Sequence record: NC_047998.1 | DNA from: Shigella phage Sfin-1 | DNA: 50,403 nucleotides | Strand: one strand, 5' to 3' | In this document: one piece after another, positions 8,378-30,000 of the stretch | Layout: each line of letters starts with the position of its first letter | Position numbering within the stretch: the stretch's first letter is position 1 | Translations under genes and position numbers: made by a program | The notes under the pieces: generated by a model | What the model was told of the DNA's origin: nothing | What the model saw: only the letters and a program-made list of their open reading frames with translations | Database searches by the model: none

Positions 8378-8409
8378 TTCGATTTTCTCTCTTCGTTGTC
8401 GATGAGGTA

Positions 8410-8453
8410 ACTATATCAAATCACCCCACCGACGTTTTAGCAATTCGTGCTAT
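8410..8453 (-). promoter_or_regulatory. Early promoter cassette (TAGCACGAATTGCTAAAAC dyad, 22-bp spacer, TGnTATAGT)
   Basis: Dyad TAGCA-N5-TGCTA; 22 bp to extended -10 TATAGT; the TAG of the dyad is the stop codon of the upstream kinase gene. Confidence 0.55.
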
Positions 8454-11757: not shown

Positions 11758-11885
11758 AGCTGATTCCTTATTTGCAAAACGGGCAGGTTGATTTATTTCC
11801 GCTGCCACCATGATTAGGGCAGCACACTTTCTCAATTGGTGTCATAGCTGATTCCTCTGATTGGTTGCCGTGCTTCAATAAGGCC

Positions 11886-11929
11886 ACTATATCAAATGGC
11901 CTTGCGGAAGGTTTAGCAATTCGTGCTAT
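11886..11929 (-). promoter_or_regulatory. Early promoter cassette (dyad plus 22 bp plus TGaTATAGT)
   Basis: TAGCACGAATTGCTAAACC, 22-bp spacer, extended -10; GGCCA/TGGCC hairpin. Confidence 0.55.
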
Positions 11930-17940: not shown

Positions 17941-17983
17941 TAGCACTTTTTGTTAAACGCGCATCAGGGATGGCTGGTATAGT
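17941..17983 (+). promoter_or_regulatory. Early promoter cassette (TAGCACTTTTTGTTAAACG plus 22 bp plus TATAGT)
   Basis: Spacing verified; GGATGGCT...TCATCC hairpin. Confidence 0.55.
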
Positions 17984-18014
17984 CATCCCATCAACAGCAA
18001 ATGAGGAAAGAATC

Positions 18015-23431: not shown

Positions 23432-23646
23432 TATCTCCCCCTAATCTTAAGCGCCTTATTTAGATCGCCATCGTTTAACGCTTCCTGAATTGCCTTACTG
23501 TCACGATACTTCCAGTATGCGCCCCATGCACCAAAAAGCAGAAAGCAAATGAATGTAGCGCCAGCAATATAAAGTTGCCCTGTCGCCGCACCTACCAATG
23601 AAGCGCCGCCCGTGCTTGACGTAGCTGCTGTTAAAAATTCTTTCAT
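23431..23646 (-). CDS. Holin (pinholin-like, two transmembrane segments)
   Basis: 71 aa from the internal ATG with GGTGA RBS; two hydrophobic segments and a charged C-terminus; TAATG coupling to the endolysin. Confidence 0.55.
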
Positions 23647-23764
23647 AATATCACCATATATTTTTTGAACAAGTGAGTTGATTTTAACCTTCAAATTTAC
23701 TTGATACAACGCAAAAGGGCCAGCATGTAAACCATGCCAGCCCGTAAGGTTATGAATGATATTG

Positions 23765-23941
23765 TTAATCTAGCTCAATAAATTCCAGGTAATGACCGTT
23801 CAGAGGAGATTGGATTGTTGAACCTCTGCCATCGTAAATCTCAAACAATCCACCACCGAAATCATAACCAACACTATAGATCTGATTTACGCGGAATGGA
23901 AGCGTTTTGGAATCATTTCGGATGCACTTAACTCGTTTCAT
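23765..23941 (-). CDS. Hypothetical small protein (58 aa)
   Basis: AGAGGG RBS. Confidence 0.3.
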   Translation of the reverse strand: MKRVKCIRNDSKTLPFRVNQIYSVGYDFGGGLFEIYDGRGSTIQSPLNGHYLEFIELD

Positions 23942-24004
23942 GAAATACCCTCTTTGTTTTATATGTGGTCAATATACCCGAATCCCTTCGGGAGTTTTTG
24001 GCGA

Positions 24005-25156
24005 TTAGTGCGATCCTGTCATTTCTGGACGATAGATGAATCGCCCGATTTCACCAAACTGTTTATCGTAAACGATTACCGCCGCCTGGCGATATGAGCG
24101 CCACCCTCCTCGCGCTGCGTATGCATCTTTCGCGCCTAACTGCCCGTGAACCTCATCAATACCTAACGAGTGTTCAGTAATTGTCTGATGATGCCAGTGT
24201 CCGCTATGCGTGTACACGTATTTGCTTTCACCAAAATCTGCGCGGAAATCTGCTGCCATCGCTGCAAGTCGCGTGTCTGCCTTTTTCATCGTGTGACCGT
24301 GAGTGTATCCCAACAAGGTATTTCCCCAGCGGGTCTTATGCAGAATCATAGGACTAACGTCAACGAATACTCGCGGCTCGTCCTCATAGTATGCAGCCAT
24401 TGCAGCGCGTAGCCAAATCATTCCGGCCTGGTCGTGGTTCCCTTCGATAACCTGAACTTCGACCTCTTTGTGTTTAGTCAGCATTTTGTCGATAGCTCGT
24501 CGCACCGATCGAATAGCCACATGCACCAATTTCGCATATCGTGAATCCTGATCCAGAACGTGACCACTTGCCGGGGTAACAGCATCAAGACCGTCTGAGT
24601 GAAGGAAGTCGCCGCCGATTAACAGAACAGCCTTCTCTGCGTTCGGGGCAATATCGATCGCGTAGTTAAAGAAGTCATTCAGCACTTTTTCCGCTACGTC
24701 TGTAGAGTAGTTCTCTCCGCATTCATGCTTGTGAGCAAGTGCGCCAATGTGAAGATCGAACACCGGGTAGAGTGCCAGCTTGCCAATAGCGGTTGTAAGC
24801 CCTTGCGAGGTGAGTAGCTCAGTTGGTTTTGCTCGCGGCAAGTCTTCACAGAATGCAATACGCGCAGCTTCCATCATTGCCGCAATCTTCTCACGGTCCT
24901 GATCGGTCTTAACCCATCGCACTACCTCGGTCCCATCGCCGCGAATCATAGTTGATGTGCCTTTTACCATGAATCCTTCCGGTACGTTCTTAGCAACATG
25001 CTCGTTACCGTGGAAGTGACCTTCTTTTGCAAGTTTGGCGTGACGCGCTTCAACTGTGCGGATGTGCATACCGTACTTTTCAGCGATCTCGCGAAGTGTA
25101 AGTCCGCTCATGCGCTCTTCGATAAGTTGCTCGGTAGTGATTTTAGCTTGTGACAT
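24005..25156 (-). CDS. Calcineurin-like metallophosphoesterase with N-terminal helix-turn-helix domain
   Basis: Phosphoesterase motifs D-x-H (FDLHIG), GDxxD (GGDFLHSDG), GNHD, GHTH, GHWH; N-terminal LTLREIAEKYGMHIRTVE resembles an HTH. Confidence 0.6.
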   Translation of the reverse strand: MSQAKITTEQLIEERMSGLTLREIAEKYGMHIRTVEARHAKLAKEGHFHGNEHVAKNVPEGFMVKGTSTMIRGDGTEVVRWVKTDQDREKIAAMMEAARIAFCEDLPRAKPTELLTSQGLTTAIGKLALYPVFDLHIGALAHKHECGENYSTDVAEKVLNDFFNYAIDIAPNAEKAVLLIGGDFLHSDGLDAVTPASGHVLDQDSRYAKLVHVAIRSVRRAIDKMLTKHKEVEVQVIEGNHDQAGMIWLRAAMAAYYEDEPRVFVDVSPMILHKTRWGNTLLGYTHGHTMKKADTRLAAMAADFRADFGESKYVYTHSGHWHHQTITEHSLGIDEVHGQLGAKDAYAARGGWRSYRQAAVIVYDKQFGEIGRFIYRPEMTGSH

Positions 25157-25234
25157 ATTTTAATCCTTACATGATAATGAAATACATTACTGAAAATGAA
25201 ATTAGCGGTGTTAATACTACAGCAAAATAAAGAT

Positions 25235-25636
25235 TCATGCCACAGCCTTTAACCAGAATCCTAGATCTGACGATTTAAACTCAACCAGCTTTCCGTCAAC
25301 CTCAAGCATCATACTGTTTCTGCCAGGTGAGTAGTAACCTATATGCAACTCATGCTCCATACCGATAGTGCAAAGCACATTAACGAAGTCAGGAGGCAAC
25401 CAATCAGAGAAAGGGATTTTCTTAACCTGCTTTTTTCCGATCCAGATAGTATGATAATCTTCTGCGTTAATATTTAAGCCTGGAAGGCTTGTTGTTTTTT
25501 GCTGCTTTTCGTTCTCGCTCAATTCTCTTTCCTTCTTCACGATAAAACTCAAGTGACGGAGTTGCTGGCACTCTATGCATTTTTCTCGGCATATCTTCCA
25601 TAAATGAAATCTTGCCATTTGATATAATGCTAACAT
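25235..25636 (-). CDS. Hypothetical protein (overlaps 25467..25739 in another frame)
   Basis: 133-aa ORF; weak RBS; C-terminal 80 aa look protein-like. Confidence 0.3.
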   Translation of the reverse strand: MLALYQMARFHLWKICREKCIECQQLRHLSFIVKKERELSENEKQQKTTSLPGLNINAEDYHTIWIGKKQVKKIPFSDWLPPDFVNVLCTIGMEHELHIGYYSPGRNSMMLEVDGKLVEFKSSDLGFWLKAVA

Positions 25637-25739
25637 CCTTTATATCGAAATATTTCGCTATTAGTGCTATATCGTCTGAGATTCCGCATTCCTTCGCGTG
25701 CTCCCAAACCTCGCGTTTACCTTGTTTTTTTATCAACAT
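25467..25739 (-). CDS. Hypothetical protein (overlaps 25235..25636 in another frame)
   Basis: GGAG RBS; N-terminal 55 aa look protein-like, C-terminal part is low-complexity basic. Confidence 0.3.
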   Translation of the reverse strand: MLIKKQGKREVWEHAKECGISDDIALIAKYFDIKDVSIISNGKISFMEDMPRKMHRVPATPSLEFYREEGKRIERERKAAKNNKPSRLKY

Positions 25740-25926
25740 TGGTTAATTTCTCCACGCTTTCAATAAAACACTCAACATCTTTGACTGAGCAGCGATAGTA
25801 AGCCATTTTAAGGAAGTTCATAGCAATATCCCAATCAAAATTGCCGCCTTGCTTTTCAGTGATATGAACAGCCATTTTTGCAGACTGCTGAGCGATATTG
25901 AAAAAGTTTGCGTTAATGCGTGCCAT
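25717..25926 (-). CDS. Hypothetical protein (69 aa)
   Basis: Start at the ATG with GAGGA RBS, downstream of a promoter cassette. Confidence 0.4.
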   Translation of the reverse strand: MARINANFFNIAQQSAKMAVHITEKQGGNFDWDIAMNFLKMAYYRCSVKDVECFIESVEKLTNVDKKTR

Positions 25927-25958
25927 CTTATTATTCCTCATTTCGTTTTGATGAAATA

Positions 25959-26002
25959 ACTATACCCGACTTTCGCCGGGTAGTTTTAGCAATTAGTGCT
26001 GT
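25959..26002 (-). promoter_or_regulatory. Promoter cassette (TAGCACTAATTGCTAAAAC plus 22 bp plus TATAGT)
   Basis: Same architecture as the early cassettes; CCCGGCGAAAGTCGGG hairpin. Confidence 0.5.
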
Positions 26003-26244
26003 AAGATCGTGTCGGATTTAAGTTCTTCTACGTCTTTCTGAATGATTGAAGGCCAATGCTCTATGTGTTTATTCTTTATCTCATCGAACGACATATCAAG
26101 AGAACTTGTAAACTCCCATAAATCGCAACCAATAACATCTTGAGTTAATCCGTTTCTCTCCATAATTTCGCAGCACGTAGCGCGATAAAGAAGCCATAAC
26201 CCTTGATCGGTTAATTTAACAGGAACCATTTTTTCGCTCATCAT
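25993..26244 (-). CDS. Hypothetical protein (83 aa), translationally coupled to the Dam gene
   Basis: ATGA overlap with the Dam stop. Confidence 0.45.
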   Translation of the reverse strand: MMSEKMVPVKLTDQGLWLLYRATCCEIMERNGLTQDVIGCDLWEFTSSLDMSFDEIKNKHIEHWPSIIQKDVEELKSDTILQH

Positions 26245-26980: not shown

Positions 26981-27025
26981 AATAATGCCAGAATCCATTC
27001 CGGCATGTTTAGCAAAAAGTGCTAT
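26981..27025 (-). promoter_or_regulatory. Promoter cassette upstream of the Dam gene (TAGCACTTTTTGCTAAACA plus AT-rich -10)
   Basis: Dyad in minus orientation; -10-like ATTATT at about 22-23 bp. Confidence 0.4.
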
Positions 27026-29467: not shown

Positions 29468-29496
29468 TTGAATCGTTGTATCGTTTACGATATAAT
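29468..29496 (+). promoter_or_regulatory. Sigma70-like promoter (TTGAAT, 17 bp, TATAAT) for the rightward HTH/primase genes
   Basis: Canonical hexamers and spacing directly upstream of the 29548 gene. Confidence 0.5.
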
Positions 29497-29534
29497 ACAC
29501 GGCATACAGTAAACGTTTTTAGCAAAAAGTGCTA
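29491..29534 (-). promoter_or_regulatory. Promoter cassette for the helicase operon (TAGCACTTTTTGCTAAAAA plus 22 bp plus TATTAT), divergent from the plus-strand promoter
   Basis: Dyad in minus orientation; its -10 overlaps the TATAAT of the plus-strand promoter. Confidence 0.45.
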
Positions 29535-29547
29535 CAGGAGAATTAAG

Positions 29548-30000
29548 ATGAATATGAAACGTATCGCAGAGTCTACTGGTGAAATCGATAAACGTCACAT
29601 CAATGGTAACAACGGAACACGACGCGGTAAAGATAAAAAGCCTCGCCAGCGCTGCGGATTTTATATCCATAAAGAAGAAACGCGCGCAGGACTGAGAGCG
29701 CGATTGGATGCTCTTATCGAATATTACGGTGGTCCTGCGGCCTGCGCAAAGGCTCTAAAAGTTAGCAATCAGACGGTGCAAGGCTGGAAAGATCGCAATA
29801 TGATTTCATGGCAAGGCGCTGAAGCAGCGCATCGTGCTTACCGCCGACAGGGTTGCAAAGGATTCCGGGCGGCATGGCTACGATTCGATCTGAAGTTTGA
29901 TGGGAACGGAAAGTGCCTTGAGAAGCGATGCAAAAACAAGAAGTTTATGCGAGTCGTGAAGAAGGAAGATATTGGAACGACGAATAGCATTTTTAGTTAA
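29548..30000 (+). CDS. Cro/YdaS-like helix-turn-helix DNA-binding protein
   Basis: GGPAACAKALKVSNQTVQGWK matches the YdaS/Cro-type HTH signature as I recall it; AGGAG RBS; basic C-terminal extension. Confidence 0.45.
   Translation: MNMKRIAESTGEIDKRHINGNNGTRRGKDKKPRQRCGFYIHKEETRAGLRARLDALIEYYGGPAACAKALKVSNQTVQGWKDRNMISWQGAEAAHRAYRRQGCKGFRAAWLRFDLKFDGNGKCLEKRCKNKKFMRVVKKEDIGTTNSIFS

What the first reader, a model, noticed from the sequence alone, without database searches (positions are those of the whole stretch)
24005..25156. Helix-turn-helix domain fused to a calcineurin-like metallophosphoesterase
All the conserved phosphoesterase motifs (DxH, GDxxD, GNHD, GHxH) are present behind an N-terminal HTH-like segment. 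A DNA-binding phosphoesterase could be a targeted nuclease or repair enzyme, or a phosphatase recruited to specific DNA sites such as the dyad elements. I do not recall this fusion being typical for phage Ser/Thr phosphatases, but I cannot verify that here.
Basis: partly seen in the sequence, partly recalled or inferred. Interest (0 to 1): 0.5.

Follow-up and report, generated by a model that had tools for sequence, protein, structure and literature searches.

The report
Phage T1-type DNA-binding nuclease-like phosphoesterase
This gene is the well-conserved but never characterised "gp16" protein of T1-like phages, a DNA-binding helix-turn-helix domain joined to an Mre11-like metal-dependent nuclease domain; the fusion is ordinary for its large phage family, and its interest is that it is a candidate for the still unidentified enzyme that destroys host DNA.

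Summary
ORF 24005-25156 (-), 383 aa, has an N-terminal three-helix HTH, a beta-hairpin/helix linker and a complete metallophosphoesterase (MPE) core. One motif was misread: motif II is GDFLH (GDxxH, the Mre11 type), not GDxxD.

The window is a T1-like phage, 100% identical to Shigella phage Sfin-4 over the 2.2-kb stretch compared. The protein is the homologue of T1 gp16 and TLS gp66 (PHROG 704). Public records call it "DNA repair exonuclease", "proof-reading exonuclease", "phosphoesterase" or "sigma70_r4_2 domain protein".

The fusion is the standard architecture of a large phage and prophage family: 2,033 of 50,697 phage records, 5,348 clusters at 50% identity, and 508 of 522 Drexlerviridae by a published count.

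A high-confidence model (pLDDT 93.5) is closest to PolD DP1, Mre11 and SbcD. It is far from Ser/Thr phosphatases. There is no Rad50/SbcC partner.

Best reading: a DNA-tethered, Mn-dependent nuclease of phage DNA metabolism. Host-DNA breakdown and nucleotide salvage is the leading sub-hypothesis, by analogy with T5 A1 and from recurrent nucleotide-pool neighbours.

Recruitment to the phage's repeated dyad is untested. Weak evidence points both ways. Low novelty, moderate interest.

The parts
24005..25156 (-). Coding sequence of the HTH-metallophosphoesterase protein (383 aa), homologue of T1 gp16 (ST16) and TLS gp66, PHROG 704
   Evidence: ORF listing. PHROG 704 E = 5e-157 over aa 4-380. 100% DNA identity to Shigella phage Sfin-4, with RefSeq relatives annotated 'DNA repair exonuclease'. 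T1 ST16 sits at the syntenic position. TLS gp66 is 63% identical.
25019..25144 (-). N-terminal tri-helical HTH domain (aa 5-46) of LuxR/GerE/sigma-70 region 4 type; predicted recognition helix aa 32-44 (IRTVEARHAKLAK)
   Evidence: AF2 helices 8-16, 21-27 and 32-44; the 10-residue blocks covering residues 11-40 average pLDDT 95-97. Pfam HTH hits in the protein and its relatives. GerE profile hit E = 0.013. Identical in amino acids to T1 with 9 synonymous changes, and 74% identical to CRES9 where the MPE domain is 44%.
24839..24976 (-). Family-specific linker module (aa 61-106): beta-hairpin (62-71, 77-86) carrying near-invariant G75 and W81, then helix 88-104
   Evidence: AF2 model. G75 and W81 are at least 90% conserved in 146 sequences. 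The module is retained in homologues that lack the HTH, such as Campylobacter phage PC14.
24032..24790 (-). Metallophosphoesterase catalytic core (aa 123-375) with motifs I-V and a family-specific conserved loop after motif II (H186, D188, T194, D202, D204, R206)
25164..25168 (-). Shine-Dalgarno-like AAGGA, 8 nt upstream of the ATG
   Evidence: Read directly from the sequence.
23977..23992 (.). Short GC hairpin (CCCGAA-GGGA-TTCGGG on the coding strand) 13 nt after the stop codon; possible weak terminator at the end of the transcription unit
   Evidence: Terminator-like scan and sequence. T1 has an annotated rho-independent terminator at the equivalent position after ST16.
25950..26009 (-). Nearest upstream copy of the T1-type repeat and promoter module: dyad 25987-26001, hairpin, and -10-like TATAGT at 25959-25964. 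It probably drives the small ORFs at 25717-25941 and 25467-25739, the T1 ST17 homologue at 25235-25522, and then the HTH-MPE gene
   Evidence: Repeat family D1. Oriented listing of the sites. Spacing of exactly 22 nt to the -10-like hexamer. No other promoter-like site lies between it and the gene on the minus strand except a weak 9/12 match at 25805-25834.

Best explanation
The gene encodes a DNA-tethered nuclease of the binuclear metallophosphoesterase superfamily.

The C-terminal 250 residues form a complete Mn/Fe-type active site whose closest structural relatives are the 3'-5' DNA exonucleases and endonucleases Mre11, SbcD and PolD-DP1. The protein has no Mre11 capping domain and no Rad50/SbcC partner. 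I infer that the N-terminal LuxR/sigma-r4-type HTH, with the conserved hairpin-helix linker, supplies the DNA grip that Rad50 or DP2 supplies in those systems.

The gene is transcribed with the helicase, VRR-NUC and Dam block. I infer that the protein acts on DNA ends or nicks during phage DNA metabolism.

The most likely specific job is breakdown of the host chromosome into nucleotides for salvage. A second possibility is end-processing for recombination-dependent replication.

What is shown: fold, intact active site, HTH, family distribution and gene neighbourhoods. What is inferred: nuclease activity, DNA binding and the biological role.
For: (1) The active site is complete and under selection. 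D134, D183, N240, H241, H286 and H322 are invariant in 146 sequences; H136, H186, D242 and H320 are at least 90% conserved.

(3) Motif II is GDxxH, as in the T. maritima Mre11/SbcD chain 2q8u (GDLLH), and motifs I, II, III and V align collinearly with it.

(4) The HTH is a family-wide feature.

(5) Context points to DNA and nucleotide metabolism:
- In this window the gene follows the helicase, VRR-NUC and Dam genes.
- Next to DNA ligase and RusA in Campylobacter phage PC14.
- Next to SSB and an RNase H-like gene in a Vibrio phage.
- Next to polynucleotide kinase or dNMP kinase in many Drexlerviridae (PMC13164509) and in fTaEco03.
- In 18 of 49 prophage loci a dNMP kinase, dATP/dGTP diphosphohydrolase, DUF7768 or HD-like gene lies within 4.5 kb downstream.

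(6) There is a precedent. T5 A1 is a putative metallophosphatase described as resembling DSB-repair nucleases and polymerase proofreading nucleases. It is necessary and sufficient for host DNA degradation (bioRxiv 10.64898/2026.04.02.716235).

(7) T1 and TLS degrade host DNA and the responsible gene is unidentified (PMC11447400).
Against: No activity data exist for any family member; my literature searches found none.

Sequence profiles do not reach significance against any solved MPE (best E = 0.13).

The specific link to T5 A1 is inconclusive (hhalign probability 25%, C-terminal 44 columns only).

The phage has other nuclease candidates for host DNA breakdown: a RecE-like exonuclease, VRR-NUC and, in relatives, HNH enzymes.

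Many of the 18 neighbourhood-positive prophage loci are related rhizobial prophages and so are not independent.

Neighbouring nucleotide-pool enzymes would fit a nucleotide substrate equally well.
Confidence: 0.55

Rival explanations
1. Site-specific regulator or nuclease. The HTH-MPE dimer binds the T1-type repeat (ATAGCAC-N3-TTGnTAAAA, dyad TAGCA-N5-TGCTA) that sits at about -41.5 of some 20 early and middle promoters. There it would switch promoters on or off, as T5 A1 shuts off pre-early transcription, or cut at the adjacent hairpins.
For: The dyad is real: 23 matches against 1.5 expected.

Its geometry is fixed. A -10-like hexamer lies exactly 22 nt downstream in 15 of 22 sites here, 13 of 21 in T1 and 8 of 8 in the TLS segment. 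That puts the dyad centre near -41.5.

The TLS authors state that the function of the repeat is unknown (PMC11447400).

The HTH is of LuxR/GerE type. From general knowledge, that type typically binds such dyads as a dimer.

In CRES9, which keeps the repeat, the HTH is 74% identical with 16 synonymous-only codons, while the MPE domain is 44%.

Across the whole family the HTH diverges faster than the MPE (18% against 39%), as expected for lineage-specific targets.

T5 A1 couples DNA degradation with promoter shut-off.
Against: There is no direct evidence of binding.

A Cro-like HTH protein (ORF 29476-30000, P22_Cro E = 6.8e-5) is conserved in the same phages and is an equally good candidate.

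TLS keeps the same repeat although five positions of its recognition helix differ.

Jersey-like AG11 has a related HTH-MPE (52% in the HTH) but no T1-type repeat. Its only enriched dyad, TAATAG-N4-CTATTA, overlaps sigma-70 promoters like a repressor operator.

Campylobacter phage PC14 keeps the enzyme without any HTH.

The T1 versus window difference (93% against 66% nucleotide identity) looks like mosaic recombination rather than selection.
Confidence: 0.12
2. Nucleotide or small-molecule phosphodiesterase. The MPE domain acts on nucleotides, dinucleotides or signalling nucleotides as part of a nucleotide-pool or anti-defence module. The HTH would serve autoregulation or localisation.
For: Downstream neighbours are repeatedly nucleotide-pool enzymes: dNMP kinase PF21448, dGTP_diPhyd_N PF18909, an HD-like protein and DUF7768 (PMC13164509).

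Against: Motif II is the Mre11-type GDxxH.

A family-wide DNA-binding domain is hard to explain for a soluble nucleotide enzyme.

There is no match to any PADLOC defence model.
Confidence: 0.15
3. Proofreading exonuclease accessory to a polymerase, as the TLS gp66 annotation 'proof-reading exonuclease' implies.
Against: No DNA polymerase is annotated in T1, so there is no phage-encoded polymerase in T1-like phages to partner with, and no DP2-like partner. The name most likely reflects a top remote-homology hit. No DP1-type OB fold is evident: the model has only a two-strand hairpin N-terminal to the core.
Confidence: 0.05
4. Ser/Thr or Tyr protein phosphatase of the lambda-PPase kind, carried to DNA or to a DNA-bound target.
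For: It belongs to the same superfamily, and phages are known to encode such phosphatases (general knowledge).
Confidence: 0.03

Closest known systems
T1 gp16 (ST16), TLS gp66, PHROG 704 ('DNA repair exonuclease', 'proof-reading exonuclease', 'phosphoesterase')
   Same: Same family and same architecture. It sits at the same syntenic position, between the Dam block and the lysis cassette. Identity to the TLS protein is 63% by BLASTP, and to the protein cluster named for Escherichia phage JMPW2 (Tunavirus) 72%. PHROG 704 matches at E = 5e-157. The gene is persistent in 508 of 522 Drexlerviridae (PMC13164509).
   Different: Nothing substantive. The first 56 residues are identical to T1 while the rest is about 70% identical, so the gene is mosaic. 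No member has been characterised experimentally.
Mre11/SbcD nucleases
   Different: There is no capping domain, no Rad50/SbcC-binding helices and no Rad50/SbcC gene in the phage. An N-terminal HTH plus hairpin-helix module is present instead. Identity is only 12-17% and profile E-values are not significant.
PolD small subunit DP1 (3'-5' proofreading exonuclease)
   Different: No OB-fold domain is evident, there is no DP2 partner, and no phage polymerase is annotated in T1.
Phage T5 A1 protein
   Same: A phage MPE-type protein described as resembling DSB-repair and proofreading nucleases, with extra N-terminal domains. It is necessary and sufficient for host DNA degradation and also affects transcription. 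Its homologues likewise sit next to PNK, dNMP phosphatase or MazG-like genes. There is a shared local pattern around motifs III and V (NHD-x3-S-x-WL; GHxH...ITY).
   Different: It is 556 aa with a different N-terminal half. Profile-profile probability is only 25%, so specific homology beyond the superfamily is not established.
Lambda-type Ser/Thr protein phosphatases (PPP family)
   Same: Same superfamily fold and the same dinuclear metal site (general knowledge).
LuxR/GerE and sigma-70 region 4 HTH domains
   Same: The N-terminal domain matches these profiles: GerE 1fse E = 0.013, Sigma70_r4_2 down to 1.5e-9 in relatives, GerE Pfam 2.4e-8.
   Different: The domain is at the N-terminus of an enzyme, not the C-terminus of a regulator. 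The window protein itself scores below the Pfam thresholds.

Membership tests
Calcineurin-like metallophosphoesterase superfamily | Five collinear motifs: DxH, GDxx(D/H), GNH(D/E), H, GHxH | tested here: met
   D134-L-H136, G182-D-F-L-H186, G239-N-H-D242, H286, G319-H-W-H322. All are invariant or at least 90% conserved in 146 sequences.
Calcineurin-like metallophosphoesterase superfamily | Beta-alpha-beta-alpha-beta sandwich fold matching solved MPEs | tested here: met
Calcineurin-like metallophosphoesterase superfamily | Score above the Pfam gathering threshold (PF00149 or PF12850) | tested here: not met
   15.7 bits against a cutoff of 21.5, and 16.2 against 27. 29 and 20 of 120 relatives match at E <= 0.01. 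The family is a divergent branch that Pfam models capture poorly.
Mre11/SbcD nucleases | Mre11-type catalytic core with GDxxH motif II | tested here: met
   GDFLH, and a collinear alignment with T. maritima Mre11. Top-ranked structural matches.
Mre11/SbcD nucleases | C-terminal capping domain and Rad50-binding helices | tested here: not met
   The protein ends about 8 residues after the last core strand (E368-375 of 383). Only about 250 residues run from motif I to the end.
Mre11/SbcD nucleases | Partner Rad50/SbcC ATPase encoded alongside | tested here: not met
   No such gene appears among the window ORFs or in the T1 annotation, or among conserved neighbours in 57 prophage loci.
Mre11/SbcD nucleases | Mn-dependent 3'-5' exonuclease and ssDNA endonuclease activity | not testable with these tools
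   Needs biochemistry.
PolD DP1 proofreading subunit | PDE domain preceded by an OB fold, bound to the DP2 catalytic subunit | tested here: not met
PPP-family Ser/Thr phosphatases (lambda PPase) | GDxHG, GDxVDRG and GNHE signature motifs | tested here: not met
HTH DNA-binding domains (LuxR/GerE/sigma-70 r4 type) | Tri- or tetra-helical bundle with a helix-turn-helix, recognisable by profiles | tested here: met
   Helices 8-16, 21-27 and 32-44; the 10-residue blocks covering residues 11-40 average pLDDT 95-97. Pfam HTH families hit in relatives down to 1.5e-9. GerE 1fse E = 0.013. The window protein alone is sub-threshold.
HTH DNA-binding domains (LuxR/GerE/sigma-70 r4 type) | Actual, and possibly sequence-specific, DNA binding | not testable with these tools
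   Only indirect evidence: conservation of the HTH in repeat-bearing phages.
PHROG 704 / T1 gp16 family | Full-length profile match and conserved synteny | tested here: met
   E = 5e-157 over 4-380 of 383. Same position as T1 ST16 and TLS gp66.
T5 A1 family | Profile-profile homology beyond the generic MPE motifs | tested here: inconclusive
   hhalign of A2 against a 9-sequence A1 alignment gives probability 25%, E = 7.7e-4, 44 columns at the C-terminus. Against the single A1 sequence the probability is 15% around motif III.
PdeM (ligase-associated DNA damage response endonuclease, TIGR04123) | Score above the NCBIfam cutoff | tested here: not met
   13.3 bits against a cutoff of 150.

The most novel reading that the evidence does not exclude
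The HTH-MPE may be a bifunctional protein that reads the phage's own 21-nt promoter repeat. The dyad is centred near -41.5 of about 20 early and middle promoters, and each copy is followed by a covarying hairpin. The protein would use these sites either to shut early transcription off or turn it on, or to nick the adjacent hairpins, while its nuclease domain destroys the host chromosome. That would make it a T1 counterpart of the pleiotropic T5 A1 protein. It would explain two open T1 and TLS questions at once: what the repeats are for, and which gene degrades host DNA.
Probability: 0.1. Interest if true: 0.7.

Novelty: already known. Interest (0 to 1): 0.33.

Why it matters
The gene and its family are already in the databases, and the fusion is their normal form. 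The finding as written is therefore not a discovery.

It still marks a gap. About 4% of sequenced phage genomes (2,033 of 50,697 records) carry this HTH-nuclease-like protein, it is near-universal in T1-like phages, and no member has been studied.

T1 and TLS are known to degrade the host chromosome and reuse the nucleotides, yet the enzyme has never been identified. In T5 the equivalent job has just been assigned to an MPE-type protein. That makes gp16 a concrete, cheaply testable candidate.

If the HTH also reads the unexplained promoter repeats of T1-like phages, the protein would link transcription control with host-DNA destruction.

Tried and rejected
- A sequence search of the PDB with the single protein found nothing. 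NCBIfam gave only noise: sigma70-ECF 13.7 bits and PdeM 13.3 bits. PADLOC gave nothing.
A 5-sequence alignment worked. The afdb50 fold library was unavailable.
- I looked for a conserved small partner gene next to the HTH-MPE across T1-like, Jersey-like, Vibrio, Rhodobacter and Campylobacter phages. None is shared by all; DUF7768 and dGTP_diPhyd_N recur in some.
- I looked for the T1-type dyad in a Jersey-like phage carrying the gene. It is absent, and that phage has a different operator-like dyad.
- Specific homology to T5 A1 was tested and is inconclusive.
- Literature searches for functional data on the family found none. The T1 genome paper (Virology 2004) is not held, so I could not check whether genetic gene 2.5, the host-DNA-degradation gene, maps to ORF16.
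- The Ser/Thr phosphatase reading and the proofreading reading were considered and rejected on motifs, fold ranking and the lack of a polymerase.
Full report
**What the window is.** A 2.2-kb stretch around the finding (window 23500-25700) is 100% identical to Shigella phage Sfin-4 and Sfin-5, about 97% identical to Escherichia phage ADB-2, and 92-97% identical to most other Tunavirus genomes listed. The window is therefore a T1-like siphovirus (Drexlerviridae). RefSeq relatives annotate the gene as "DNA repair exonuclease". In phage T1 it is ORF ST16 (gp16). In TLS it is gp66, "proof-reading exonuclease" (63% identity).

**Checking the observation.** An AAGGA ribosome-binding site lies 8 nt upstream.

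The phosphoesterase motifs are present and collinear:
- D134-L-H136
- G182-D-F-L-H186
- G239-N-H-D242
- H286-G-H288
- G319-H-W-H322

One detail is wrong. Motif II is GDxxH, not GDxxD.

In an alignment of 146 family members reaching about 30% identity, D134, D183, N240, H241, H286 and H322 are invariant. H136, H186, D242 and H320 are at least 90% conserved. The active site is therefore intact and under selection.

Pfam sees the window protein only below threshold: Metallophos_2 E = 0.011, Metallophos 0.021, and several HTH families at about 0.02 on residues 14-38. PHROG 704 matches full-length at E = 5e-157.

**Is the N-terminus really an HTH?** Yes, on four lines of evidence.
- A model built from the 146-sequence alignment is confident (mean pLDDT 93.5, pTM 0.81). 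It shows three helices at 8-16, 21-27 and 32-44; the 10-residue blocks covering residues 11-40 average pLDDT 95-97. After them come a short helix, a beta-hairpin (62-71, 77-86), a long helix (88-104) and the MPE core from residue 123.
- Scanning 120 relatives individually against Pfam gives HTH_1 in 25, HTH_8 in 20, HTH_50 in 15, Sigma70_r4_2 in 13 (best 1.5e-9) and GerE in 7 (best 2.4e-8).
- The family profile hits the GerE structure 1fse at E = 0.013 and RhlR at 0.09, aligned over the whole N-terminal domain.
- Nearly all 146 members carry 50-100 residues ahead of the conserved hairpin. A few lineages lack the HTH but keep the hairpin, for example Campylobacter Fletchervirus at 317 aa.

A Bacillus phage homologue with only 27% identity in the MPE domain also begins with an HTH-like segment. 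The fusion is therefore old and is the norm for this family.

**How large and how known is the family?** An exhaustive profile search finds 5,348 clusters at 50% identity with E <= 1e-3, and 1,346 with E <= 1e-30. Most are 370-420 aa and match nearly end to end.

tblastn finds the protein in 2,033 of 50,697 phage records. These include Drexlerviridae, Jerseyvirus and other 42-48-kb enterobacterial siphoviruses, many Vibrio siphoviruses, Rhodobacter and Ruegeria phages, and Campylobacter myoviruses. Depositors have called it DNA repair exonuclease, phosphoesterase, metallophosphoesterase, sigma70_r4_2 domain protein, winged-HTH protein, transcriptional regulator or DNA-binding protein. Both halves have therefore already been noticed.

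A 2026 pangenome study reports the module exonuclease-holin-endolysin-spanin in 508 of 522 Drexlerviridae (PMC13164509).

I found no experimental work on any member.

Foldseek ranks T. maritima and M. jannaschii Mre11 first (E about 1e-7, TM about 0.4).

The family profile aligns motif by motif with T. maritima Mre11: DWHLG with DlHlG, GDLLHS with GDflHy, GNHD, and GHIH with GHlH. The E-value is only 0.13.

The nearest known relatives are thus DNA 3'-5' exonucleases and endonucleases, but the family is a divergent branch. Defining features of Mre11/SbcD membership are not met. There is no capping domain, since the protein ends just after the core. There is no Rad50/SbcC gene in the phage or among conserved neighbours in prophages.

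A conserved loop after motif II (H186, D188, T194, D202, D204, R206) is specific to this family.

**Genomic context.** In the window the gene ends a minus-strand block: SF2 helicase, VRR-NUC, Dam methylase, small ORFs, then the HTH-MPE. After it come a small hairpin, an SH3-like gene, a strong terminator and the lysis cassette.

Elsewhere the neighbours vary, but the theme is DNA and nucleotide metabolism:
- DNA ligase and RusA in Campylobacter phage PC14.
- SSB and an RNase H-like gene upstream, and DUF7768 and dATP/dGTP diphosphohydrolase downstream, in a Vibrio phage.
- Polynucleotide kinase or dNMP kinase directly after it in many Drexlerviridae and in fTaEco03.

Fifty-seven loci from bacterial genomes have terminase and portal genes a few kilobases downstream in several loci, so they look like prophages. 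They show lysozyme and holin-like genes upstream. In 18 of the 49 loci with enough flank, a dNMP kinase (PF21448), dGTP_diPhyd_N (PF18909), DUF7768 or HD-like gene lies within 4.5 kb downstream. Many of these loci are related rhizobial prophages, so the count overstates independence.

In Jersey-like phages the gene sits in a three-gene antisense island inside the tail genes, behind an early-type operator.

**Most likely function.** I read the protein as a DNA-tethered, metal-dependent nuclease in which the HTH and linker replace the DNA-holding partner (Rad50/SbcC or DP2) of its structural relatives.

Two papers make host-chromosome breakdown the leading specific role. The TLS re-annotation states that T1 and TLS degrade host DNA and reuse the nucleotides, and that the responsible gene is unknown (PMC11447400). 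A 2026 preprint shows that T5 A1 is necessary and sufficient for host DNA degradation and also damps pre-early transcription. It describes A1 as a putative metallophosphatase resembling DSB-repair and proofreading nucleases.

I tested whether A1 is a specific relative. Profile-profile comparison with a 9-sequence A1 alignment gives only 25% probability over 44 C-terminal columns. There is also a suggestive local match around motif III. That is inconclusive, so A1 is an analogue and not a demonstrated homologue. A1 homologues also sit next to PNK, dNMP phosphatase or MazG-like genes.

End-processing for recombination-dependent replication remains possible. The phage has RecE-like, Erf-like and VRR-NUC genes of its own.

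**The dyad question.** The "dyad elements" are real. TAGCA-N5-TGCTA with at most one mismatch occurs 23 times against 1.5 expected. The sites are oriented with transcription.

The element was already described in TLS as a 21-nt repeat, aaATAGCACnnnTTGnTAAAA, of unknown function (PMC11447400).

I add two observations:
- A -10-like hexamer, often TGnTATAGT, lies exactly 22 nt after the repeat. This holds in 15 of 22 sites here, 13 of 21 in T1 and 8 of 8 in the TLS segment. It puts the dyad centre near -41.5.
- In 18 of 22 sites a stable hairpin with different stem sequences follows the repeat.

Whether the HTH-MPE reads this element cannot be decided here.

For it:
- The HTH is of the LuxR/GerE type.
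- In the divergent T1-like phage CRES9, which keeps the repeats, the HTH is 74% identical with many synonymous changes, while the MPE domain is 44%.

Against it:
- A Cro-like protein (ORF 29476-30000) is conserved in the same phages.
- TLS keeps the repeat despite five changes in the recognition helix.
- Jersey-like AG11 has the gene but no such repeat.
- The high T1-versus-window identity of the HTH segment at the DNA level (93% against 66%) looks like mosaic recombination.
- Early promoters must fire before any phage protein is made (inference). A shut-off role would therefore fit better than activation.

**Verdict.** The nuclease or repair reading is the best supported. The phosphatase reading and the claim of an unusual fusion are not supported. 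Dyad recruitment is open.

The gene is a known, annotated core gene of T1-like phages, so novelty is low. Interest is moderate, because the family is large and uncharacterised, and because it is a concrete candidate for an old open question in T1 biology.

Noticed in passing
window, 22-25 sites, e.g. 8438-8452, 11914-11928, 17941-17955, 25987-26001, 27010-27024, 29520-29534: T1-type repeat ATAGCAC-N3-TTGnTAAAA (dyad TAGCA-N5-TGCTA): 23 matches against 1.5 expected, oriented with transcription. A -10-like hexamer, often with an upstream TG, lies exactly 22 nt downstream in 15 of 22 sites here, 13 of 21 in T1 and 8 of 8 in a TLS segment, so the dyad centre is near -41.5. The repeat is known from TLS (PMC11447400) as a repeat of unknown function; I did not find the fixed spacing reported there.
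   Followed up: partly
window, the 48 nt downstream of each repeat copy (e.g. 8390-8437, 11866-11913, 17956-18003): In 18 of 22 copies a stable hairpin (z < -1.5, mean z -2.7) follows the repeat. The stems differ in sequence between copies, and the -10-like hexamer lies in the loop or the 3' arm. A CATCGAAACGA-like box often follows. Function unknown.
   Followed up: partly
window 29476-30000 (+): Homologue of the T1 ST23 'transcriptional regulator', with a P22_Cro/YdaS-like HTH (E = 6.8e-5). It is a rival candidate binder of the repeat. The mechanical ORF start overlaps a repeat copy (29520-29534) that faces the divergent helicase gene, so the true start is probably further downstream (T1 ST23 is 150 aa).
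   Followed up: partly
window 23765-23941 (-) and 23717-23743: A small 58-aa ORF (PHROG 4788) lies between the HTH-MPE gene and the holin. It corresponds to the standalone SH3/DUF7244 protein reported for Drexlerviridae lysis modules (PMC13164509). A strong terminator-like hairpin (11-bp stem plus a T run) separates it from the holin gene.
   Followed up: no
window 25235-25636 (-): The mechanical 133-aa ORF upstream of the target is probably only about 95 aa (start near 25522). T1 ST17 is 95 aa and 88% identical over that part.
   Followed up: partly
L008 (Salmonella phage AG11), sites 14511, 25612, 29822, 32204, 36011, 37218, 40032: Jersey-like phages carry a different repeated dyad, TAATAG-N4-CTATTA. 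It overlaps sigma-70-type promoters like a repressor operator. One copy lies directly upstream of the antisense three-gene island that holds their HTH-MPE gene, inside the tail gene cluster.
   Followed up: partly
L010-L066 (prophage loci) and L004 7149-7993: A recurrent gene string lies downstream of the HTH-MPE: DUF7768, an HD-like protein, a small SH3-like ORF, dNMP kinase (PF21448), dATP/dGTP diphosphohydrolase (PF18909), then terminase. Lysis genes lie upstream. The MPE therefore sits at a lysis / nucleotide-pool / packaging junction in many prophages.
   Followed up: partly
L067 1706-3376 (T5 A1) and L068-L075: T5 A1 homologues occur in 1,135 phage records, well beyond Demerecviridae: Vibrio, Caulobacter, Agrobacterium and Flavobacterium phages. 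They carry MPE motifs (GDIH, NHD, HGH, GHTH). Pfam sees nothing in T5 A1 itself. One homologue is annotated 'homeodomain-like', and several have PNK, dmp or MazG-like neighbours.
   Followed up: partly
window 24989-25156 compared with T1 (L007 40822-40990): The gene is mosaic. The first 56 residues are identical to T1 (93% nucleotide identity over codons 1-46), while the rest of the gene is about 70% identical in amino acids and 66% in nucleotides. This suggests a recombination junction just after the HTH.
   Followed up: partly
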